Positions 1,469 to 44,316 of a stretch of 44,355 bases of DNA are shown piece after piece. The notes beneath the pieces are model-generated. The model was not told where the DNA came from and searched no databases. It saw only the letters and a list, made by a program, of their open reading frames with translations. The DNA comes from Escherichia coli (GTDB taxonomy: Bacteria; Pseudomonadota; Gammaproteobacteria; Enterobacterales; Enterobacteriaceae), in the NCBI RefSeq assembly GCF_044324785.1, contig NZ_CP172130.1. One strand, written 5' to 3'. The position numbers were made by a program, and so were the translations under genes. Position 1 is the stretch's first letter. Each line of letters opens with the position of its first letter.

Positions 1469-1819
1469 TATCAGGTGAGAGAGTTTATTAACGAAAAATA
1501 TGCTAAGGCTGTTAATATTTTAAATGATAATCTTAAAGAAAACTACCATGTTTTTTATGGAGTAAGATTAAGTGAGATTCTTTTCCCTGCCAGTGAGTAT
1601 GGCTCTGATGCATTCTTTAAAGAGTTTGAATCAATTAACAGTGTAATACTTCCATTAGTAATATTTGATTTTATAGACCGAAAGCCGATTATGGTTATCG
1701 GCTTCGATAAGATACCTGATGCCAGTTTGTTTGAAGGAACAAATATTGTGGTTCTTGAATGTACTACCCTCGCCGATCTTCTGACAAATGATAACATTTG
1801 TTTTTTATATAAAAGCTAA
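1463..1819 (+). CDS. Hypothetical protein (118 aa)
   Basis: ORF-track frame 1394..1819 trimmed to the ATG preceded by GGAGAA. The upstream 23 codons are simply the translated inverted repeat shared with the taxA upstream region. Confidence 0.5.
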   Translation: MKYQVREFINEKYAKAVNILNDNLKENYHVFYGVRLSEILFPASEYGSDAFFKEFESINSVILPLVIFDFIDRKPIMVIGFDKIPDASLFEGTNIVVLECTTLADLLTNDNICFLYKS

Positions 1820-2793
1820 GAATCTCCTATCAGTTTATATTTTCTGCTTGGGTTGCCAAGTGTTATCGAGTCCAGTTCATGTGAGTAATGATGTGTATGA
1901 TAATGTGCTGGATTTTTCAGATAATCAGGGAGTGATATTATTTTTCCGTAGCTAATTGCAGAATAAAACCAGTTGCGGAATGTCTCGCTGTTTGTTTTTA
2001 AAGCATCTTTTGGAATAAATGCTAATTTTATGTTAGAAACGTAATTAACAGGTTTAAGTGTGGTATGTCTGTTTTGTCCAAAGTCTTTTAAAGCATCTGT
2101 AAATTCATATTCTGATGTATAATTTTCTGTCTTATTACTAGGGTGTTTTATCTGGAATATGAATGAATAGTAGTTCTGGCCAAGTATTTCAACGGTGTTT
2201 GAATTTATGCTCAGTTGTTCAATAACCGCTTCTCTTTTATACTCTAATTTGTCTCTGACAGATTGATATACAACCATTGCTGCATGATGTGAACCACCAC
2301 TGTTTAAAGCCACATATCGGTCAATCCAAGAGTAATATTTAACATTAATAGGATCGCGAGGCTTGAAACCTTCATGCTCAATGTGCCATATATTATCCTC
2401 CCAGTCTGAAATATTTTCAGCTTTCAGATTTTCGGCAGGATACATCCCCTCTCCCCACGAATAAAGATCTTTGAACCAACTACCATTTATTACCTTGCTC
2501 CATCCACAACCGAAACTTTTCGAGTCAGTCAGAGATTGTATTTTGTTAAAATCGAAGTCCAGAGAGTGTTTCTTATCTGTAGTTATTAAGTTGCTCAGAA
2601 TTTCAGCCAGATCCCTGTCAATATATCTCAGTGAGTATTCGCTAAATATATTTTCAAGCTGCAATATGGTGTCTGCATCTGCTGTAGGTTTAAATAACTT
2701 AATATCAGCAAGATTTTTAAACGTTGCTGTGGTCAGTTTATGGTGATCTGTCAACCTGTAGAGGTTACAGATCAATTCGGTTAAATATCTCAT
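1816..2793 (-). CDS. Hypothetical protein (325 aa), AT-rich accessory gene, no recognised domain
   Basis: Long uninterrupted ORF convergent with the 118-aa gene; strongly AT-rich codon usage unlike neighbouring backbone genes. Confidence 0.55.
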   Translation of the reverse strand: MRYLTELICNLYRLTDHHKLTTATFKNLADIKLFKPTADADTILQLENIFSEYSLRYIDRDLAEILSNLITTDKKHSLDFDFNKIQSLTDSKSFGCGWSKVINGSWFKDLYSWGEGMYPAENLKAENISDWEDNIWHIEHEGFKPRDPINVKYYSWIDRYVALNSGGSHHAAMVVYQSVRDKLEYKREAVIEQLSINSNTVEILGQNYYSFIFQIKHPSNKTENYTSEYEFTDALKDFGQNRHTTLKPVNYVSNIKLAFIPKDALKTNSETFRNWFYSAISYGKIISLPDYLKNPAHYHTHHYSHELDSITLGNPSRKYKLIGDS

Positions 2794-2817
2794 AGATTTT
2801 CATCCATGCTTCTATGG

Positions 2818-3099
2818 TTAGAATTTTGCAGACTCAAGCAACCAGTGATTCTTTATGTTTTCATCCTGGCTGTTGTACATCGCCAGCGCCGCTTTGAGAA
2901 CGGTTGTTTTGCTCTGCCCTGTTCTGATAGCTTCAGCTTCCAGTATGTCCTCAAAATGGGCAGAAAGTCTGAAGTTCATCAACTTTGGTTTACCCACTAC
3001 AGGCGCTCTGGTAGCGCCGGAGATAAAACGCGCGGTTTCTGCGTTTGTTGCTGGTTGCTGAGATTCATCGATGTTCGGACGGTTTAGTTTCAAAGCCAT
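2818..3099 (-). CDS. Small partition/centromere-binding protein, ribbon-helix-helix type (ParG/ParB-like)
   Basis: 93-aa ORF immediately downstream of the parA-like gene; start chosen at ATG preceded by AAGGGGA; basic N-terminus and short size typical of ParG-like partners. Confidence 0.6.
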   Translation of the reverse strand: MALKLNRPNIDESQQPATNAETARFISGATRAPVVGKPKLMNFRLSAHFEDILEAEAIRTGQSKTTVLKAALAMYNSQDENIKNHWLLESAKF

Positions 3100-3198
3100 G
3101 ACAATTTCCCCTTGTACGGTATGCATTAATAGTAAATATCATACCGTCTTTATATTATCTTTACAATGTAAAGATTGTTATAGATGGTATTGATATTA

Positions 3199-3861
3199 CT
3201 ATAAAATTCCAATTTCCTGCGCTACTAGTTCAATCTGTGCTTTCGCTGTTGAAAGGCTTGATGCCCGGCTAACGTCATGTACCCCTGCCCCTTCATTACA
3301 GGCGCTTTCATACACATCCAGCTCGGATATCCGGGTTTTAAGAGGTTGAATCCAGATGTTGTCCGACCGCAGTAATTTATCCAGATCAATGGCCGCTTTT
3401 CTGTGGCGGGGTTTTGCTGAGTTGATTCTGGTGAACAGCACCCACGGTTCCAGGGCTGCGTTAGCTTTCTGAGCGGTGCGGATTTTCTCTGTAACACTGG
3501 TCAGTGTTTCGCTTTCGAAATCAGAGGACGGCTTAACCAGTGTTACCACGATATCTGATACTGTCAGGGCGCTACGGAACTCCTGGCTGTCGTGGCCGGG
3601 GCAATCGACAATGAGGACTTCACACAGCTTACTAAGTCGCTTAATTTCATTGCTGACGTTTCCGTAAGCTGCGTGAACCGGGATAGTGAGTAAGCCGTTA
3701 TCTGTCCGCTTTTCGTTCCAGCTCAACAGATCGTGGTTTTTATCTGTCTTGAGGATAATTACCGACTTACCTTTATTGACTAGCATTGAGCCTGTGTTAG
3801 CCACGTAGGTACTTTTTCCTACACCACCCTTATCTGATACGACAAGCAAGATTTTACCCAT
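3199..3861 (-). CDS. parA: ParA/ParF-family partition ATPase
   Basis: Deviant Walker A motif KGGVGKST at the N-terminus; 220 aa; followed by a small basic protein; flanked by repeat arrays. Confidence 0.85.
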   Translation of the reverse strand: MGKILLVVSDKGGVGKSTYVANTGSMLVNKGKSVIILKTDKNHDLLSWNEKRTDNGLLTIPVHAAYGNVSNEIKRLSKLCEVLIVDCPGHDSQEFRSALTVSDIVVTLVKPSSDFESETLTSVTEKIRTAQKANAALEPWVLFTRINSAKPRHRKAAIDLDKLLRSDNIWIQPLKTRISELDVYESACNEGAGVHDVSRASSLSTAKAQIELVAQEIGIL

Positions 3862-3882
3862 TTGAGAATTCCTCTCTTTATC

Positions 3883-4110
3883 ATGTAAAGATCATGTAAA
3901 GATCGTCTTGTCTTTACATTGTGTGTTTTCTGTAAAGATGATTTTATCTTTACAGTGTCTTTATATTACATAGGATTTACCATGTAAAGCACAAATAAAG
4001 ACAATCATGTATTTATGTTATCTTTATTTTGTAAAGACTAGCGCATCATTATATTGGCTTTACATAGTAAATCAGTACTTGTCTTTACATCATATTTACG
4101 TTGTAAATTT
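3883..4110. repeat. Array of about 11 TGTAAAG/CTTTACA heptamer repeats in both orientations (candidate centromere/operator, possibly overlapping a res site)
   Basis: Repeated CATGTAAAG, CTTTACA, CTGTAAAG, TTGTAAAG motifs between the par operon and the resolvase gene; a related palindrome CTTTACAATGTAAAG lies at about 3150..3175. Confidence 0.5.
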
Positions 4111-4223
4111 TCATGTGACATTGTCACTTTATGACCAGAGGTCTGTTTTCTGGTTCTTTTAGAGTGTGCCTTTCCTGTCGATCTACTTTCTGGTGCATTT
4201 TGGGTATAGTGGTATAACCTTAT

Positions 4224-4880
4224 GTGAACCGGTTCTGTAATATGACTTCAAATGTACCAACAAGCTTTGTCCGCGCTTATCTGAGAGCTTCAACAGCAGA
4301 ACAGGATGCTTCGCGTGCCCTGGAAACTATCGAGGCTTTTGCCAGGGAAAGAGGCCTGATCATTTGCAGCTACTATATTGAGAATGAATCCGGCACCCGT
4401 CTTGAGCGCCCGGAACTTTTTCGTCTTCTGAGAGATTGCCAACAAAATGACATTTTGCTTATCGAGGATGTGGACAGACTTTCCCGCCTGTCAGGGGAAG
4501 ACTGGAATACGTTGAAGAAAATGATCCGGCAGAAAGACATCCGGGTTATGGCGGTGAATGTGCCGACGACATGGATTAATTCTGGTATGAGTGAGTTTGA
4601 TAGCCGGTTGTTTGCAGCCATTAACGATATGCTGCTGGATATGCTGGCCGCTGTTGCCAGAAGGGACTATGAACAACGGCGGGAACGCCAGAAACAAGGG
4701 ATAGAGAAAGCAAGGAAAGACGGCAAATATAAAGGGCGTAAACCTAATCAAGCCAGACATGATGCAATTATCAGGTTGATAGAAAGCGGTAGCTCCTGGA
4801 CACAGGTACAGAAAGTGCTAGGGTGCAGCCGTGGCACAATCAGTAGCGCAATAAAACGTAAATCCCGGCAATCACTCTAG
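4224..4880 (+). CDS. Serine recombinase (resolvase family), probable multimer-resolution resolvase
   Basis: N-terminal catalytic motif AYLRASTAEQ; size and C-terminal HTH region typical of resolvases. The true start may be the ATG at 4242 (MTSNVP...). Confidence 0.8.
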   Translation: MNRFCNMTSNVPTSFVRAYLRASTAEQDASRALETIEAFARERGLIICSYYIENESGTRLERPELFRLLRDCQQNDILLIEDVDRLSRLSGEDWNTLKKMIRQKDIRVMAVNVPTTWINSGMSEFDSRLFAAINDMLLDMLAAVARRDYEQRRERQKQGIEKARKDGKYKGRKPNQARHDAIIRLIESGSSWTQVQKVLGCSRGTISSAIKRKSRQSL

Positions 4881-5067
4881 TGAGTAGGGAAGCTGTTATC
4901 CTGAATTACTTTGGATATGGGCATATATGCTGGAATAGGGCATTAGATAAAGTAATTGAGCATGTGAATGTTGTAACTAATTCAGGCTGAGCAGAAAATG
5001 CTGTATGTCCAGTCTGTACTGGAATTATACTGGCAACCATGATCATCACAGGAAGAACAAGTAATAG

Positions 5068-6988: not shown

Positions 6989-7084
6989 TCAATCGATGAA
7001 CTGACGGATCAGTTCCAGAACTGCAATCAGCGCGTTTGCAACGGCGACCACAGCCCTGAGAACGATGATTAACAGGTTAATCAT
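6989..7084 (-). CDS. Candidate type I toxin: 31-aa hydrophobic peptide MINLLIIVLRAVVAVANALIAVLELIRQFID (DinQ/TisB-like)
   Basis: ATG with GGAG 6 nt upstream; the SD lies in a CUCCAG/CUGGAG hairpin; single transmembrane helix; absent from the ORF track because it is under 60 aa. Confidence 0.4.
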   Translation of the reverse strand: MINLLIIVLRAVVAVANALIAVLELIRQFID

Positions 7085-40944: not shown

Positions 40945-41142
40945 TTATTTATCTGTTCTCTTTTGTGTCTTTTTTTCCAGTGCTTTTCTGAGTAATGCCA
41001 TATACTCAGGAAAGACATGGAATGGCATCAAAGGGAAAACCGGACGCCCACCCTTTTCAACGTCATTTATTGCTGATAATATGCGTTCCGACATTTTATT
41101 CCTCGCAATAGAATCAGGTGTCACGGTATCAGGTTGCCCCAC
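40945..41142 (-). CDS. Hypothetical small protein (65 aa)
   Basis: Tightly packed small ORF in the same string. Confidence 0.4.
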   Translation of the reverse strand: MGQPDTVTPDSIARNKMSERILSAINDVEKGGRPVFPLMPFHVFPEYMALLRKALEKKTQKRTDK

Positions 41143-41163
41143 AACCTGATACCATCTTTATCT

Positions 41164-41343
41164 TTACTTTATTAACTTCTCAATTGCTTCTTTTTTTGCT
41201 TTCTCCTGTTCTGATGGTGGGTATGCAAGGTCATACCAGTTATCAATACAATGAATAACTCTTTCTTTAGATAATCCACATTGCTCAAACCAAAATTTTA
41301 TATTTCGGTTTAATGATGCTTTTGCGCTAAACTCTCTTTCCAT
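41164..41343 (-). CDS. Hypothetical small protein (59 aa)
   Basis: MEREFSAKASLNRNIKFWFEQCGLSKERVIHCIDNWYDLAYPPSEQEKAKKEAIEKLIK; found by manual translation (under the ORF-track cutoff). Confidence 0.35.
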   Translation of the reverse strand: MEREFSAKASLNRNIKFWFEQCGLSKERVIHCIDNWYDLAYPPSEQEKAKKEAIEKLIK

Positions 41344-44045: not shown

Positions 44046-44177
44046 AACATGAGAGGATTTTTAACGTAAGGTGAGAGGATCTTTAACATAAGGTGAGAAG
44101 ATTTTTAAGTAAGGGTGAGAAGATTTTTCACTAAAGATGAGAGGATTTTTAACGAAAGGTGAGAGGATTTTTAAGTA
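44046..44177 (+). repeat. Six tandem 22-bp iterons of a gamma-type (pi-dependent) replication origin
   Basis: AACATGAGAGGATTTTTAACGT / AAGGTGAGAGGATCTTTAACAT / AAGGTGAGAAGATTTTTAAGTA / AGGGTGAGAAGATTTTTCACTA / AAGATGAGAGGATTTTTAACGA / AAGGTGAGAGGATTTTTAAGTA; AT-rich flanks. Confidence 0.85.
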
Positions 44178-44260
44178 CATCCACAGGCTAAAAAAATATC
44201 ATGTAAAACATGATGTTATGAATTCATTTTGATGTGAATACATAAAGATCTTTATATCTA

Positions 44261-44316
44261 AAGGTGATAAGTTTTTTAACTAAAGGTTGTAATGTGTTGT
44301 TGTCATACAACCTTTA
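44261..44316 (+). promoter_or_regulatory. pir promoter/operator: iteron-like box AAGGTGATAAGTTTTTTAACTA plus 10-bp inverted repeat AAAGGTTGTA-N14-TACAACCTTT
   Basis: Lies just upstream of the pir ATG across the circular junction. Confidence 0.6.

What the first reader, a model, noticed from the sequence alone, without database searches (positions are those of the whole stretch)
3883..4110. Dense heptamer repeat array upstream of the partition operon
About 11 copies of TGTAAAG/CTTTACA in mixed orientation, with a matching palindrome downstream of the small par gene (about 3150..3175). Repeat blocks on both sides of the operon suggest a bipartite centromere or combined operator/centromere. Part of the array may also be the resolvase res site.
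Basis: seen in the sequence. Interest (0 to 1): 0.4.

Follow-up and report, generated by a model that had tools for sequence, protein, structure and literature searches.

The report
Partition-protein binding array of an IncX1 plasmid
The repeat block is real and is most likely the DNA site (centromere plus gene switch) that a small plasmid-encoded protein coats so that a ParA motor can segregate this IncX1 resistance plasmid; it is an uncharacterised example of a well-known kind of system, not a new mechanism.

Summary
Nine exact TGTAAAG/CTTTACA copies lie in 3884-4089, against 0.06 expected from local shuffles. Counting degenerate copies, about 19 RTAAAG sites (consensus AATGTAAAGAYA) fill 3876-4108. 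They are spaced 9, 11 or 16 bp apart and partly form 36-bp units. In IncX3 relatives the cores are 96% invariant and the spacers 60%.

The window is an IncX1 plasmid. The array lies upstream of a ParF-like type Ib ParA gene (220 aa) followed by a 93-aa predicted ribbon-helix-helix (RHH) gene. The most likely reading is a centromere/operator coated by RHH dimers.

- The palindrome at 3159-3173 lies between parA and the small gene, not downstream of the operon. It is one full copy of the 36-bp unit. The same layout recurs in 12 of 13 related lineages, whatever their repeat motif.
- The res site is not in the array. Sister IncX1 plasmids carry the same resolvase next to a true TP228-type parFG cassette with ACTC boxes and no RTAAAG array.

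I found no published description of this centromere. Binding and centromere activity are untested. Verdict: new member of a known kind, modest interest.

The parts
3876..4108 (.). Array of about 19 RTAAAG/CTTTAY sites in mixed orientation (9 exact TGTAAAG heptamers). Core starts are 3876-, 3885+, 3896+, 3912-, 3932+, 3948-, 3959-, 3975-, 3984+, 3995+, 4011-, 4022-, 4031+, 4047-, 4058-, 4067+, 4083-, 4094-, 4103+. Proposed centromere/operator.
   Evidence: core columns 96% invariant against 60% for spacers across IncX1/IncX3
3995..4108 (.). Three tandem 36-bp super-repeat units (RTAAAG-N10-CTTTAY-N5-CTTTAY-N3-) starting at 3995, 4031 and 4067, closed by the site at 4103. Partial units start at 3896 and 3932.
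   Evidence: the repeat finder family D1 with 36-bp spacing; units shown in register
3960..3988 (-). Best candidate parA promoter: -35 TTTACA (3988..3983), 17-nt spacer, -10 TATAAA (3965..3960). Both hexamers lie inside repeat sites. Prediction only.
   Evidence: 10 of 12 consensus matches; these columns are invariant in IncX3. The stricter scan does not list it because the -10 lacks T at position 6.
3199..3861 (-). parA: 220-aa type Ib Walker ATPase (KGGVGKS), distantly ParF-like
3132..3173 (.). One complete copy of the 36-bp unit plus its closing site, in the parA-to-small-gene spacer: GTAAAT-N10-CTTTAT-N5-CTTTAC-aat-GTAAAG. It includes the palindrome at 3159-3173. A promoter-like site for the small gene overlaps it (-35 TTGTAA 3166..3161, -10 TATGAT 3143..3138).
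   Evidence: (D1 reference copy). The equivalent spacer in relatives carries their own repeats.
2818..3099 (-). 93-aa predicted ribbon-helix-helix protein, the presumed centromere-binding protein. It has a disordered N-terminal tail with a conserved TARFI motif, a strand K39-L45 (KLMNFRL), and helices at 47-60, 64-77 and 80-92.
   Evidence: Public records annotate the start at 3099.
4112..4241 (+). Candidate res / resolvase-control region, distinct from the array: palindrome GTGACAttGTCAC (4115-4127), 24-nt direct repeats (4142-4165 and 4182-4205), palindrome GAACCGGTTC (4228-4237), and promoter-like TCTACT-17-TATAGT (4182-4210).
   Evidence: (D5)
4224..4880 (+). Divergently transcribed serine resolvase. 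The longest ORF starts at GTG 4224; public records annotate the start at 4242.

Best explanation
The array is the cis-acting site of a type Ib plasmid partition system on an IncX1 plasmid.

Proposed mechanism, by analogy with other type Ib systems:
1. Dimers of the 93-aa RHH protein each recognise one RTAAAG core through their paired beta-strands (strand KLMNFRL, with N42 and R44 conserved).
2. They cooperatively coat about 19 sites over roughly 235 bp. The sites are spaced 9, 11 or 16 bp apart.
3. The coated array is the partition complex. The protein's disordered N-terminal tails (conserved TARFI motif) contact and stimulate the 220-aa ParF-like ParA ATPase, which positions plasmid copies over the nucleoid.
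4. The array covers the likely parA promoter, so the same binding should repress the operon. It would then act as both centromere and operator.
5. A single 42-bp copy of the repeat unit sits between parA and the RHH gene. It gives a second binding locus that most likely tunes expression of the RHH gene itself, as an internal operator/promoter or a roadblock. It may also add to centromere strength.

Shown here: the anatomy, the conservation, and the association with the gene pair. Inferred: binding, centromere activity and repression.
For: Identity and gene context:
- The window is an IncX1 plasmid.
- The ATPase aligns over its full length to TP228 ParF (4dzz, E=1.2e-7) and matches NCBIfam ParA_partition.
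- A profile of the small protein's homologues hits only the CopG RHH repressor (E=0.57). The AlphaFold model has the helix pair plus a third helix. Nearly all Foldseek hits are RHH proteins, including CopG (target TM 0.75-0.80) and ParG 1p94. Public sources name its homologues CopG/RHH family.

The array itself:
- Enrichment is 9 exact heptamers against 0.06 expected locally.
- Cores are 96% invariant and spacers 60% across IncX1/IncX3 (Fisher p=2.5e-10). The result holds when cores are defined in IncX3 instead.
- RTAAAG arrays persist upstream of homologous parA genes in IncX3, IncX5, an Enterobacter ludwigii plasmid, IncI2 and Morganella. The IncI2 locus has no adjacent resolvase or DUF6685 gene.
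- Lineages with a different RHH beta-strand carry different repeats in the same two places: SRTYRL with GTAAATAC, KLASFRI with GTGACATAC/ATGTACATCA, and RINLTM with GTGTATNAATACAC.
- In 12 of 13 lineages the parA-to-RHH spacer shares more 7-mers with the region upstream of parA than any coding control or any of 300 shuffles.
- Paired-site arrangements occur nowhere else in the 44-kb window, except a terminator-like T-tract at 41156.

Precedents:
- ParG dimers coat 20 ACTC boxes that act as both centromere and operator (PMC3130281).
- Omega dimers bind heptad arrays that overlap the promoters of both the delta and omega genes (PMC3074150).
Against: - No binding, stability or transcription data exist for this cassette in the literature I could search.
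- The RHH assignment rests on weak sequence and fold scores (E about 0.6-1) and on a monomer model in which the strand is not formed.
- Promoter calls are consensus matches only. The best parA candidate has a -10 without the conserved final T, and the promoter-like site for the small gene is not evident in IncI2.
- Motif-to-strand covariation is not a clean code. NFRL strands occur with both GTAAAGA and GTAAATAC repeats.
- Unexplained: sister IncX1 plasmids encode a 101-103-aa protein whose RHH domain is close to this one (about 86% aa identity for P0043). Over 71 aligned codons in L021, 18 differ synonymously and 31 non-synonymously. Yet the one such plasmid scanned whole (45 kb) has no RTAAAG cluster.
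Confidence: 0.75

Rival explanations
1. The array is only a transcriptional operator. It autoregulates the par operon, and perhaps the divergent resolvase gene, while the true centromere lies elsewhere.
For: The CTTTACA core resembles a -35 hexamer, and promoter-like matches fall inside the array on both strands. RHH partition proteins are known repressors (PMC3130281, PMC3074150).
Against: No other cluster of these sites exists anywhere in the 44-kb window. About 19 sites over 235 bp is far more than repression needs. In TP228 and pSM19035 the operator arrays are themselves proficient centromeres (PMC3130281, PMC3074150).
Confidence: 0.1
2. Part of the array is the res site, or accessory sites, of the divergently transcribed serine resolvase.
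For: The array ends only about 115-135 bp from the resolvase start. The two genes share one intergenic region.
Against: - The same resolvase, with homology starting at 4144, sits beside a TP228-type parFG cassette that has ACTC boxes and no RTAAAG sites.
- The IncI2 locus carries the array with no adjacent resolvase.
- Distinct conserved motifs fill 4112-4241. The palindrome GTGACANNGTCAC is kept in both cassette types.
Confidence: 0.04
3. The repeats are bound by a protein other than the 93-aa RHH protein, for example the downstream DUF6685 protein or a host factor.
For: An RHH domain close to this one exists in plasmids without any RTAAAG array. No binding data exist.
Against: The DUF6685 gene is absent from the IncI2 locus, and the E. 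ludwigii record annotates no DUF6685 gene beside its par genes; both keep the array. Only the ParA/RHH pair is constantly linked to the repeats. Repeat motifs change when the RHH strand changes. Type Ib ParA proteins lack a specific DNA-binding domain (established knowledge).
Confidence: 0.08
4. The array is a set of replication iterons or an auxiliary IncX origin.
For: IncX (R6K-type) plasmids have several origins, and the region is AT-rich (27% GC).
Against: The Rep3/pi-type iterons are 22-bp TGAGAGGATTTTTAAC-type repeats found only at 44048-44280, upstream of the rep gene. None occurs in or near the array. The array also travels with par genes on the IncI2- and IncX3/IncX5-typed replicons.
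Confidence: 0.01

Closest known systems
TP228 ParF-ParG-parH/OF (type Ib; Hayes laboratory)
   Same: Both have a small Walker ParA that aligns full-length to ParF, and a small RHH adaptor with a flexible N-terminal tail. Both have about 20 short degenerate boxes in mixed orientation upstream of the operon, proposed to serve as centromere and operator. Both sit next to a divergent resolvase on IncX backbones.
   Different: The small protein is not a ParG family member: it has no PF09274 hit and no sequence match to 1p94. The ATPase scores well below the NCBIfam ParA_partition equivalog cut-off (94.8 against 180 bits). Boxes are RTAAAG hexamers spaced 9, 11 or 16 bp apart in 36-bp units, not ACTC tetramers on an 8-bp period. 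This cassette also has an extra repeat unit between the two genes. True parFG/ACTC cassettes occur as an alternative allele in other IncX1 plasmids. Published 'IncX1 parFG(H)' statements (PMC3097218, PMC3402527) probably describe that TP228-type allele, not the one in this window.
pSM19035 delta-omega-parS (type Ib, Firmicutes)
   Same: An RHH adaptor binds 7-bp-class repeats in direct and inverted orientation. Arrays lie upstream of both the ATPase gene and the RHH gene and overlap promoters (PMC3074150, PMC5016525).
   Different: Omega heptads (WATCACW) are contiguous, whereas the sites here are spaced. Here the genes look like one operon with a 99-bp spacer. No third array sits at a copy-control gene: there is no cluster elsewhere in the window, and the look-alike palindrome before the rep gene is not conserved in IncX3. 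There is no detectable sequence relationship.
pB171 par2 (parC1/parC2) and IncI1 pESBL ParAB-parS
   Same: These are enterobacterial type Ib systems with a small adaptor and two arrays of short repeats in direct and inverted orientation. In pESBL, about one protein binds per octamer by EMSA (PMC7602700).
   Different: Their second array lies downstream of the operon; here it lies between the genes. The motifs differ (pESBL has GATAACAA). Homology to these systems was not tested because the pB171 record was not available.
R1 ParR-parC (type II)
   Same: An RHH adaptor binds repeats that flank and overlap the operon promoter, with helical-turn (about 11 bp) spacing of some neighbouring sites.
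   Different: The motor there is actin-like ParM, not a Walker ParA. Its repeats are direct and regular.

Membership tests
Type Ib ParABS partition locus | Short Walker-type ParA (about 200-220 aa) with deviant Walker A and no N-terminal DNA-binding domain | tested here: met
   The protein is 220 aa with KGGVGKS at residues 11-17. It hits Pfam AAA_31, CbiA and MipZ, and NCBIfam ParA_partition at E=4.8e-27. It aligns full-length to ParF 4dzz.
Type Ib ParABS partition locus | Small centromere-binding protein (usually RHH) encoded directly downstream of parA | tested here: met
   A 93-aa ORF lies 99 bp downstream of parA. Its homologue profile hits only CopG (E=0.57). The AF2 model shows the helix pair. 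The Foldseek list is dominated by RHH proteins. Scores are individually weak but mutually consistent.
Type Ib ParABS partition locus | Array of short direct/inverted repeats next to the operon | tested here: met
   About 19 RTAAAG sites lie at 3876-4108, with 9 exact heptamers against 0.06 expected.
Type Ib ParABS partition locus | The adaptor binds the repeats, and the repeats confer partition and incompatibility in cis | not testable with these tools
   Needs EMSA or footprinting and plasmid stability or incompatibility assays. Indirect support comes from core-over-spacer conservation and lineage-specific repeats.
TP228 ParFGH family | Adaptor belongs to the ParG family (Pfam PF09274) | tested here: not met
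   The small protein has no Pfam or NCBIfam hit and no sequence match to 1p94 at E<=10. A true PF09274 ParG is seen in the alternative IncX1 cassette.
TP228 ParFGH family | Centromere/operator made of ACTC tetramer boxes with 4-bp AT-rich spacers | tested here: not met
   The motif here is AATGTAAAGAYA with 9, 11 or 16-bp spacing. ACTC/GAGT boxes are visible instead in L014 and L015.
TP228 ParFGH family | ATPase is a close ParF orthologue | tested here: not met
   The match to ParF is only E=1.2e-7 over the full length. The NCBIfam ParA_partition score is 94.8 bits against a 180-bit cut-off. The protein is 220 aa against 206 aa for ParF.
pSM19035-type split arrangement | Adaptor-binding repeats precede both the ATPase gene and the adaptor gene | tested here: met
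   A unit at 3132-3173 lies between the genes. The same layout is seen in 12 of 13 lineages by a motif-agnostic 7-mer test.
pSM19035-type split arrangement | Each array overlaps a mapped promoter, so the genes are transcribed separately | tested here: inconclusive
   Promoter-like sites overlap both repeat blocks. These are consensus matches only, and the internal site is not evident in IncI2. No transcription start-site data were available.
Serine-resolvase res site | The site travels with its resolvase gene | tested here: not met
   The same resolvase (96-98% identity from window 4144 rightward) occurs without any RTAAAG array. The array occurs without an adjacent resolvase on the IncI2 locus.
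Rep3/pi iterons | Repeats match the plasmid's iteron sequence | tested here: not met
   Iterons lie at 44048-44280 only.

The most novel reading that the evidence does not exclude
This would be a widespread, unstudied subfamily of type Ib partition loci. It serves IncX1, the IncX3 carbapenemase plasmids, IncX5, IncI2 and many other enterobacterial plasmids. Its hallmark is one adaptor-binding repeat unit between the motor gene and the adaptor gene, in addition to the upstream centromere array. That internal unit would give the adaptor its own feedback control and so set the ParA-to-adaptor ratio. Because IncX1, IncX3, IncX5 and IncI2 share the same RTAAAG core and a very similar RHH domain, their centromeres may cross-react. 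That would cause partition incompatibility between these plasmid groups, or allow the cloned array to be used to cure them.
Probability: 0.3. Interest if true: 0.5.

Novelty: new member of a known kind. Interest (0 to 1): 0.33.

Why it matters
This par cassette is common. The ParA protein is at least 99% identical in 1,315 plasmid records, including the 46-kb IncX3 plasmids that spread blaNDM-5. Published IncX descriptions either borrow the TP228 'parFGH' label, which probably describes a different cassette allele, or state that the centromere and adaptor could not be found (PMC5868456, for IncX6).

Pinning down the binding motif, the site map and the internal unit gives concrete targets:
- stability and incompatibility experiments;
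- plasmid-curing constructs;
- correct annotation, since public records currently label the ATPase 'MipZ' or 'peptidyl-arginine deiminase' and the adaptor 'hypothetical'.

Mechanistically it adds one more geometry to the known RHH-coated centromeres rather than a new principle.

Tried and rejected
- **Chance or AT-richness:** rejected by whole-window and local dinucleotide shuffles.
- **Iterons or an auxiliary origin:** rejected, because iterons occur only at 44048-44280.
- **Structured RNA:** no Rfam match in 2700-4400. The parA-to-RHH spacer folds as a long hairpin (z=-3.6), but this follows from the DNA palindromes and no U-tract follows it.
- **A third adaptor site at the rep promoter, as in pSM19035 copS:** the palindrome ATAAAGATCTTTAT at 44241-44254 looked suggestive. 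IncX3 has a different GATC-centred palindrome there with no RTAAAG, so I dropped it.
- **CTTTATCTTTACTTTAT at 41156:** it follows a GC-rich hairpin and is also present in a plasmid with the other par cassette, so I read it as a terminator T-tract.
- **Membership in the TP228 ParFGH family:** tested and not met (see the membership table).
- **A clean amino-acid-to-base recognition code from covariation:** not obtained. NFRL strands pair with both GTAAAGA and GTAAATAC repeats.
- **Widening the lineage sample with a genome-contig scan:** it returned only 4 loci.
- **Testing homology to pB171 par2:** the record was not in the collections.
- **Literature searches:** searches for IncX, IncX3 or IncI2 with centromere, for ParG, and for the motif string found no description of this array. 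Subscription-only papers such as the pOLA52 description could not be read.

Full report
**What the window is.** Region 2800-4900 is 100% identical to many 38-50-kb Escherichia and Salmonella plasmids typed IncX1. Gene order on the minus strand is:
- a 220-aa Walker ATPase (3861..3199);
- a 99-bp spacer;
- a 93-aa ORF (3099..2818; public records use this start);
- a DUF6685 gene.

A serine resolvase is transcribed divergently from 4224/4242. The finding's coordinates are the left two-thirds of the 362-380-bp region between parA and the resolvase gene.

**Checking the observation.** The window holds 15 exact TGTAAAG/CTTTACA matches. Nine are in 3884-4089 and two form CTTTACAATGTAAAG at 3159-3173. 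The region is AT-rich (27% GC), so I shuffled it locally. This gave 0.06 exact heptamers expected against 9 observed, and 0.46 RTAAAG against 13 observed.

A weight matrix built from the sites gives the consensus AATGTAAAGAYA. Alignment with three relatives shows 18 shared site positions plus a conserved TGTAAAT at 4102-4108. The array therefore holds about 19 sites from 3876 to 4108, several of them degenerate in this plasmid but intact in relatives.

Spacing between neighbouring cores is 9, 11 or 16 bp. The right half is three tandem 36-bp units of the form RTAAAG-N10-CTTTAY-N5-CTTTAY-N3.

The palindrome is also real, but it lies between parA and the small gene, not downstream of the small gene. 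With its neighbours (3132-3173) it is one complete copy of the 36-bp unit plus the closing site.

**Evidence of selection.** IncX3 plasmids carry the same cassette. Their parA differs from this one at 20 sites, all synonymous. The small gene is 85% identical and the array 77% identical.

Within the array, core columns are 96% invariant across four plasmids against 60% for spacer columns (Fisher p=2.5e-10). The contrast holds when cores are defined in IncX3 rather than in the window (93% against 66% identity). More distant loci can no longer be aligned but still carry RTAAAG arrays upstream of parA. These are IncX5, an Enterobacter ludwigii plasmid, IncI2 and Morganella.

**The proteins.** The ATPase has the deviant Walker A motif KGGVGKS. 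It matches NCBIfam ParA_partition at E=4.8e-27, though below the equivalog cut-off. It aligns end to end with TP228 ParF (4dzz) at E=1.2e-7. It is a type Ib ParA and only distantly ParF-like.

The small protein has no Pfam or NCBIfam hit. Four lines of evidence point to an RHH fold:
- Its homologues are named CopG/RHH by public sources.
- A profile of 22 homologues hits only the CopG repressor over the whole beta-alpha-alpha unit (E=0.57).
- The AlphaFold model has a disordered residue 1-45 region and helices at 47-60, 64-77 and 80-92.
- The Foldseek list is almost entirely RHH proteins, including CopG (target TM 0.75-0.80), Arc, ParG 1p94, RHH antitoxins and McdB, although no E-value is significant for so short a domain.

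The alignment shows a near-invariant strand L40-x-N42-F43-R44-L45 and a conserved TARFI motif in the tail. Two readings follow by analogy. The alternate strand residues would read bases, as in other RHH proteins (my own knowledge). The tail arginine would stimulate the ATPase, as reported for the ParG tail (PMC3130281).

**Linking protein and repeats.** Only the ParA/RHH pair is always next to the repeats. The IncI2 locus has the array but no resolvase or DUF6685 gene beside it.

Lineages with a different strand sequence have different repeats in the same two positions:

| Strand sequence | Repeat motif |
|---|---|
| SRTYRL | GTAAATAC |
| KLASFRI (IncX4) | GTGACATAC / ATGTACATCA |
| RINLTM | GTGTATNAATACAC palindromes |

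The relation is not a clean code, because NFRL strands occur with both GTAAAGA and GTAAATAC. It is still what a cognate protein-site pair predicts.

A motif-agnostic test looked at the parA-to-RHH spacer in 13 lineages. In 12 of them the spacer shares more 7-mers with the 300 bp upstream of parA than any coding-sequence control or any of 300 shuffles. Repeats before both genes are therefore a family trait, not a peculiarity of this plasmid.

**How it most likely works.** ParG dimers each load on one ACTC box and coat 20 boxes that act as both centromere and operator (PMC3130281). Omega dimers bind heptads in either orientation in arrays overlapping the promoters of the delta and omega genes (PMC3074150, PMC5016525).

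By the same logic, RHH dimers would coat the RTAAAG array. They would recruit and stimulate ParA through their tails and repress the operon.

The best parA promoter candidate is -35 TTTACA (3988..3983), a 17-nt spacer, and -10 TATAAA (3965..3960). Both hexamers lie inside repeat sites and in columns invariant in IncX3. A promoter-like site for the small gene is -35 TTGTAA (3166..3161), -10 TATGAT (3143..3138). It overlaps the internal unit and is kept in IncX3 and IncX5 but not clearly in IncI2.

The internal unit therefore probably gives adaptor-specific feedback, either as an operator or as a roadblock. An accessory centromere role cannot be excluded. All of this paragraph is inference.

**The res idea.** Other IncX1 plasmids carry the same resolvase at 96-98% identity, but their homology to this window starts only at 4144. 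To the left of it they have a genuine TP228-type cassette:
- a 206-aa ParF;
- a 76-aa ParG with Pfam PF09274;
- ACTC/GAGT boxes with AT-rich spacers;
- no RTAAAG sites.

Both cassette types keep a palindrome GTGACANNGTCAC just left of the breakpoint. The stretch 4112-4241 contains further conserved blocks, 24-nt direct repeats and a GAACCGGTTC palindrome. The res site is therefore most likely 4112-4241, abutting the array but separate from it.

This comparison also bears on published statements that IncX1 plasmids carry 'parFG' or 'parFGH' (PMC3097218, PMC3402527). Those statements probably describe the TP228-type allele, not the cassette in this window.

**What does not fit.** In the parFG-type plasmids a third gene follows parG. 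It encodes a 101-103-aa protein whose C-terminal RHH domain is close to this window's protein (about 86% aa identity for P0043) and whose N-terminal half differs. Over 71 aligned codons, 18 differ synonymously and 31 non-synonymously, with the RHH part well kept. Yet the complete 45-kb plasmid has no cluster or pair of RTAAAG sites. Its target is unknown. This is a caveat for the assumption that this RHH domain recognises RTAAAG.

**Novelty.** Within the searchable literature I found no description of this array or any experimental work on this cassette. An IncX6 paper states that ParB and parC could not be located (PMC5868456). The principle of an RHH adaptor coating a repeat array upstream of a type Ib operon is well established. 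I therefore class this as a new member of a known kind, with a modestly unusual geometry and an internal unit reminiscent of pSM19035.

Noticed in passing
window 4144 (breakpoint); L014/L021 NZ_CP133431.1, L015, L019: IncX1 backbones come with two alternative partition cassettes beside the same resolvase. One is the ParA220/RHH93/RTAAAG cassette seen here. The other is a true TP228-type parF-parG cassette with ACTC boxes. Homology resumes at window 4144, just right of a shared GTGACANNGTCAC palindrome. This suggests cassette exchange at or near res.
   Followed up: partly
L019 2501-2806; L021 2804-3115 (minus strand): A 101-103-aa gene lies directly downstream of parG in parFG-type IncX plasmids. 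Its RHH domain is close to the window's 93-aa protein (about 86% aa identity for P0043), but its N-terminal half differs. It appears to be under purifying selection. The whole plasmid has no RTAAAG cluster, so its target is unknown.
   Followed up: partly
window 3199-3861 compared with L004 678-1340: ParA is 100% identical in protein between IncX1 and IncX3, with 20 nucleotide differences, all at third codon positions. The adjacent small gene (85%) and the array (77%) are much more diverged. The cause is either very strong constraint on ParA or a mosaic history.
   Followed up: partly
window 4112-4241: Candidate res site: palindrome GTGACAttGTCAC (4115-4127), 24-nt direct repeats 40 bp apart (4142-4165 and 4182-4205), palindrome GAACCGGTTC (4228-4237), and a promoter-like TCTACT-17-TATAGT (4182-4210). 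These blocks are conserved across three resolvase alleles.
   Followed up: partly
window 44048-44280: Six 22-bp iterons (TGAGAGGATTTTTAACGTAAGG type) and a seventh, more diverged copy at 44263 lie upstream of the Rep3/pi-type rep gene that starts at window position 1. A perfect palindrome ATAAAGATCTTTAT at 44241-44254 lies between them. IncX3 has a different GATC-centred palindrome at that position.
   Followed up: yes
window 3095-3210 (minus strand): The parA-to-RHH spacer folds as RNA into a long imperfect hairpin (-26.4 kcal/mol, z=-3.6), with no U-tract after it. This is probably a by-product of the DNA palindromes, but it could affect read-through or mRNA processing.
   Followed up: no
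window 41128-41175: A hairpin CAGGTTG-N5-CAACCTG is followed by CTTTATCTTTACTTTAT. It looks like a terminator and mimics three par-type cores on a 6-bp period. It is also present in the parFG-type plasmid, so it is unrelated to this par cassette.
   Followed up: yes
window 6989-7084 (minus strand): The near-identical plasmid record annotates a DinQ-like type I toxin gene, dqlB, here. Loci of this type were recently shown to stabilise IncX3 plasmids (PMC12317039).
   Followed up: no
window 1816-2793 (minus strand): A 325-aa DUF6685 gene starts 24 bp after the RHH gene's stop, on the same strand. It is present in IncX1 and IncX5 loci and absent from the IncI2 locus; the E. ludwigii record annotates none there. 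It may be an accessory passenger of the par operon.
   Followed up: no
L022 (SFGN01000043.1): A contig labelled 'Lachnospiraceae bacterium MAG' encodes the identical 93-aa protein and a ParA whose first 25 residues match the window's ParA. It is probably an enterobacterial plasmid contig mis-binned into that genome.
   Followed up: no
public records of this cassette: The ParA gene is annotated as 'division plane positioning ATPase MipZ' or 'peptidyl-arginine deiminase', and the RHH gene as 'hypothetical protein'. These labels are misleading for a partition pair.
   Followed up: yes
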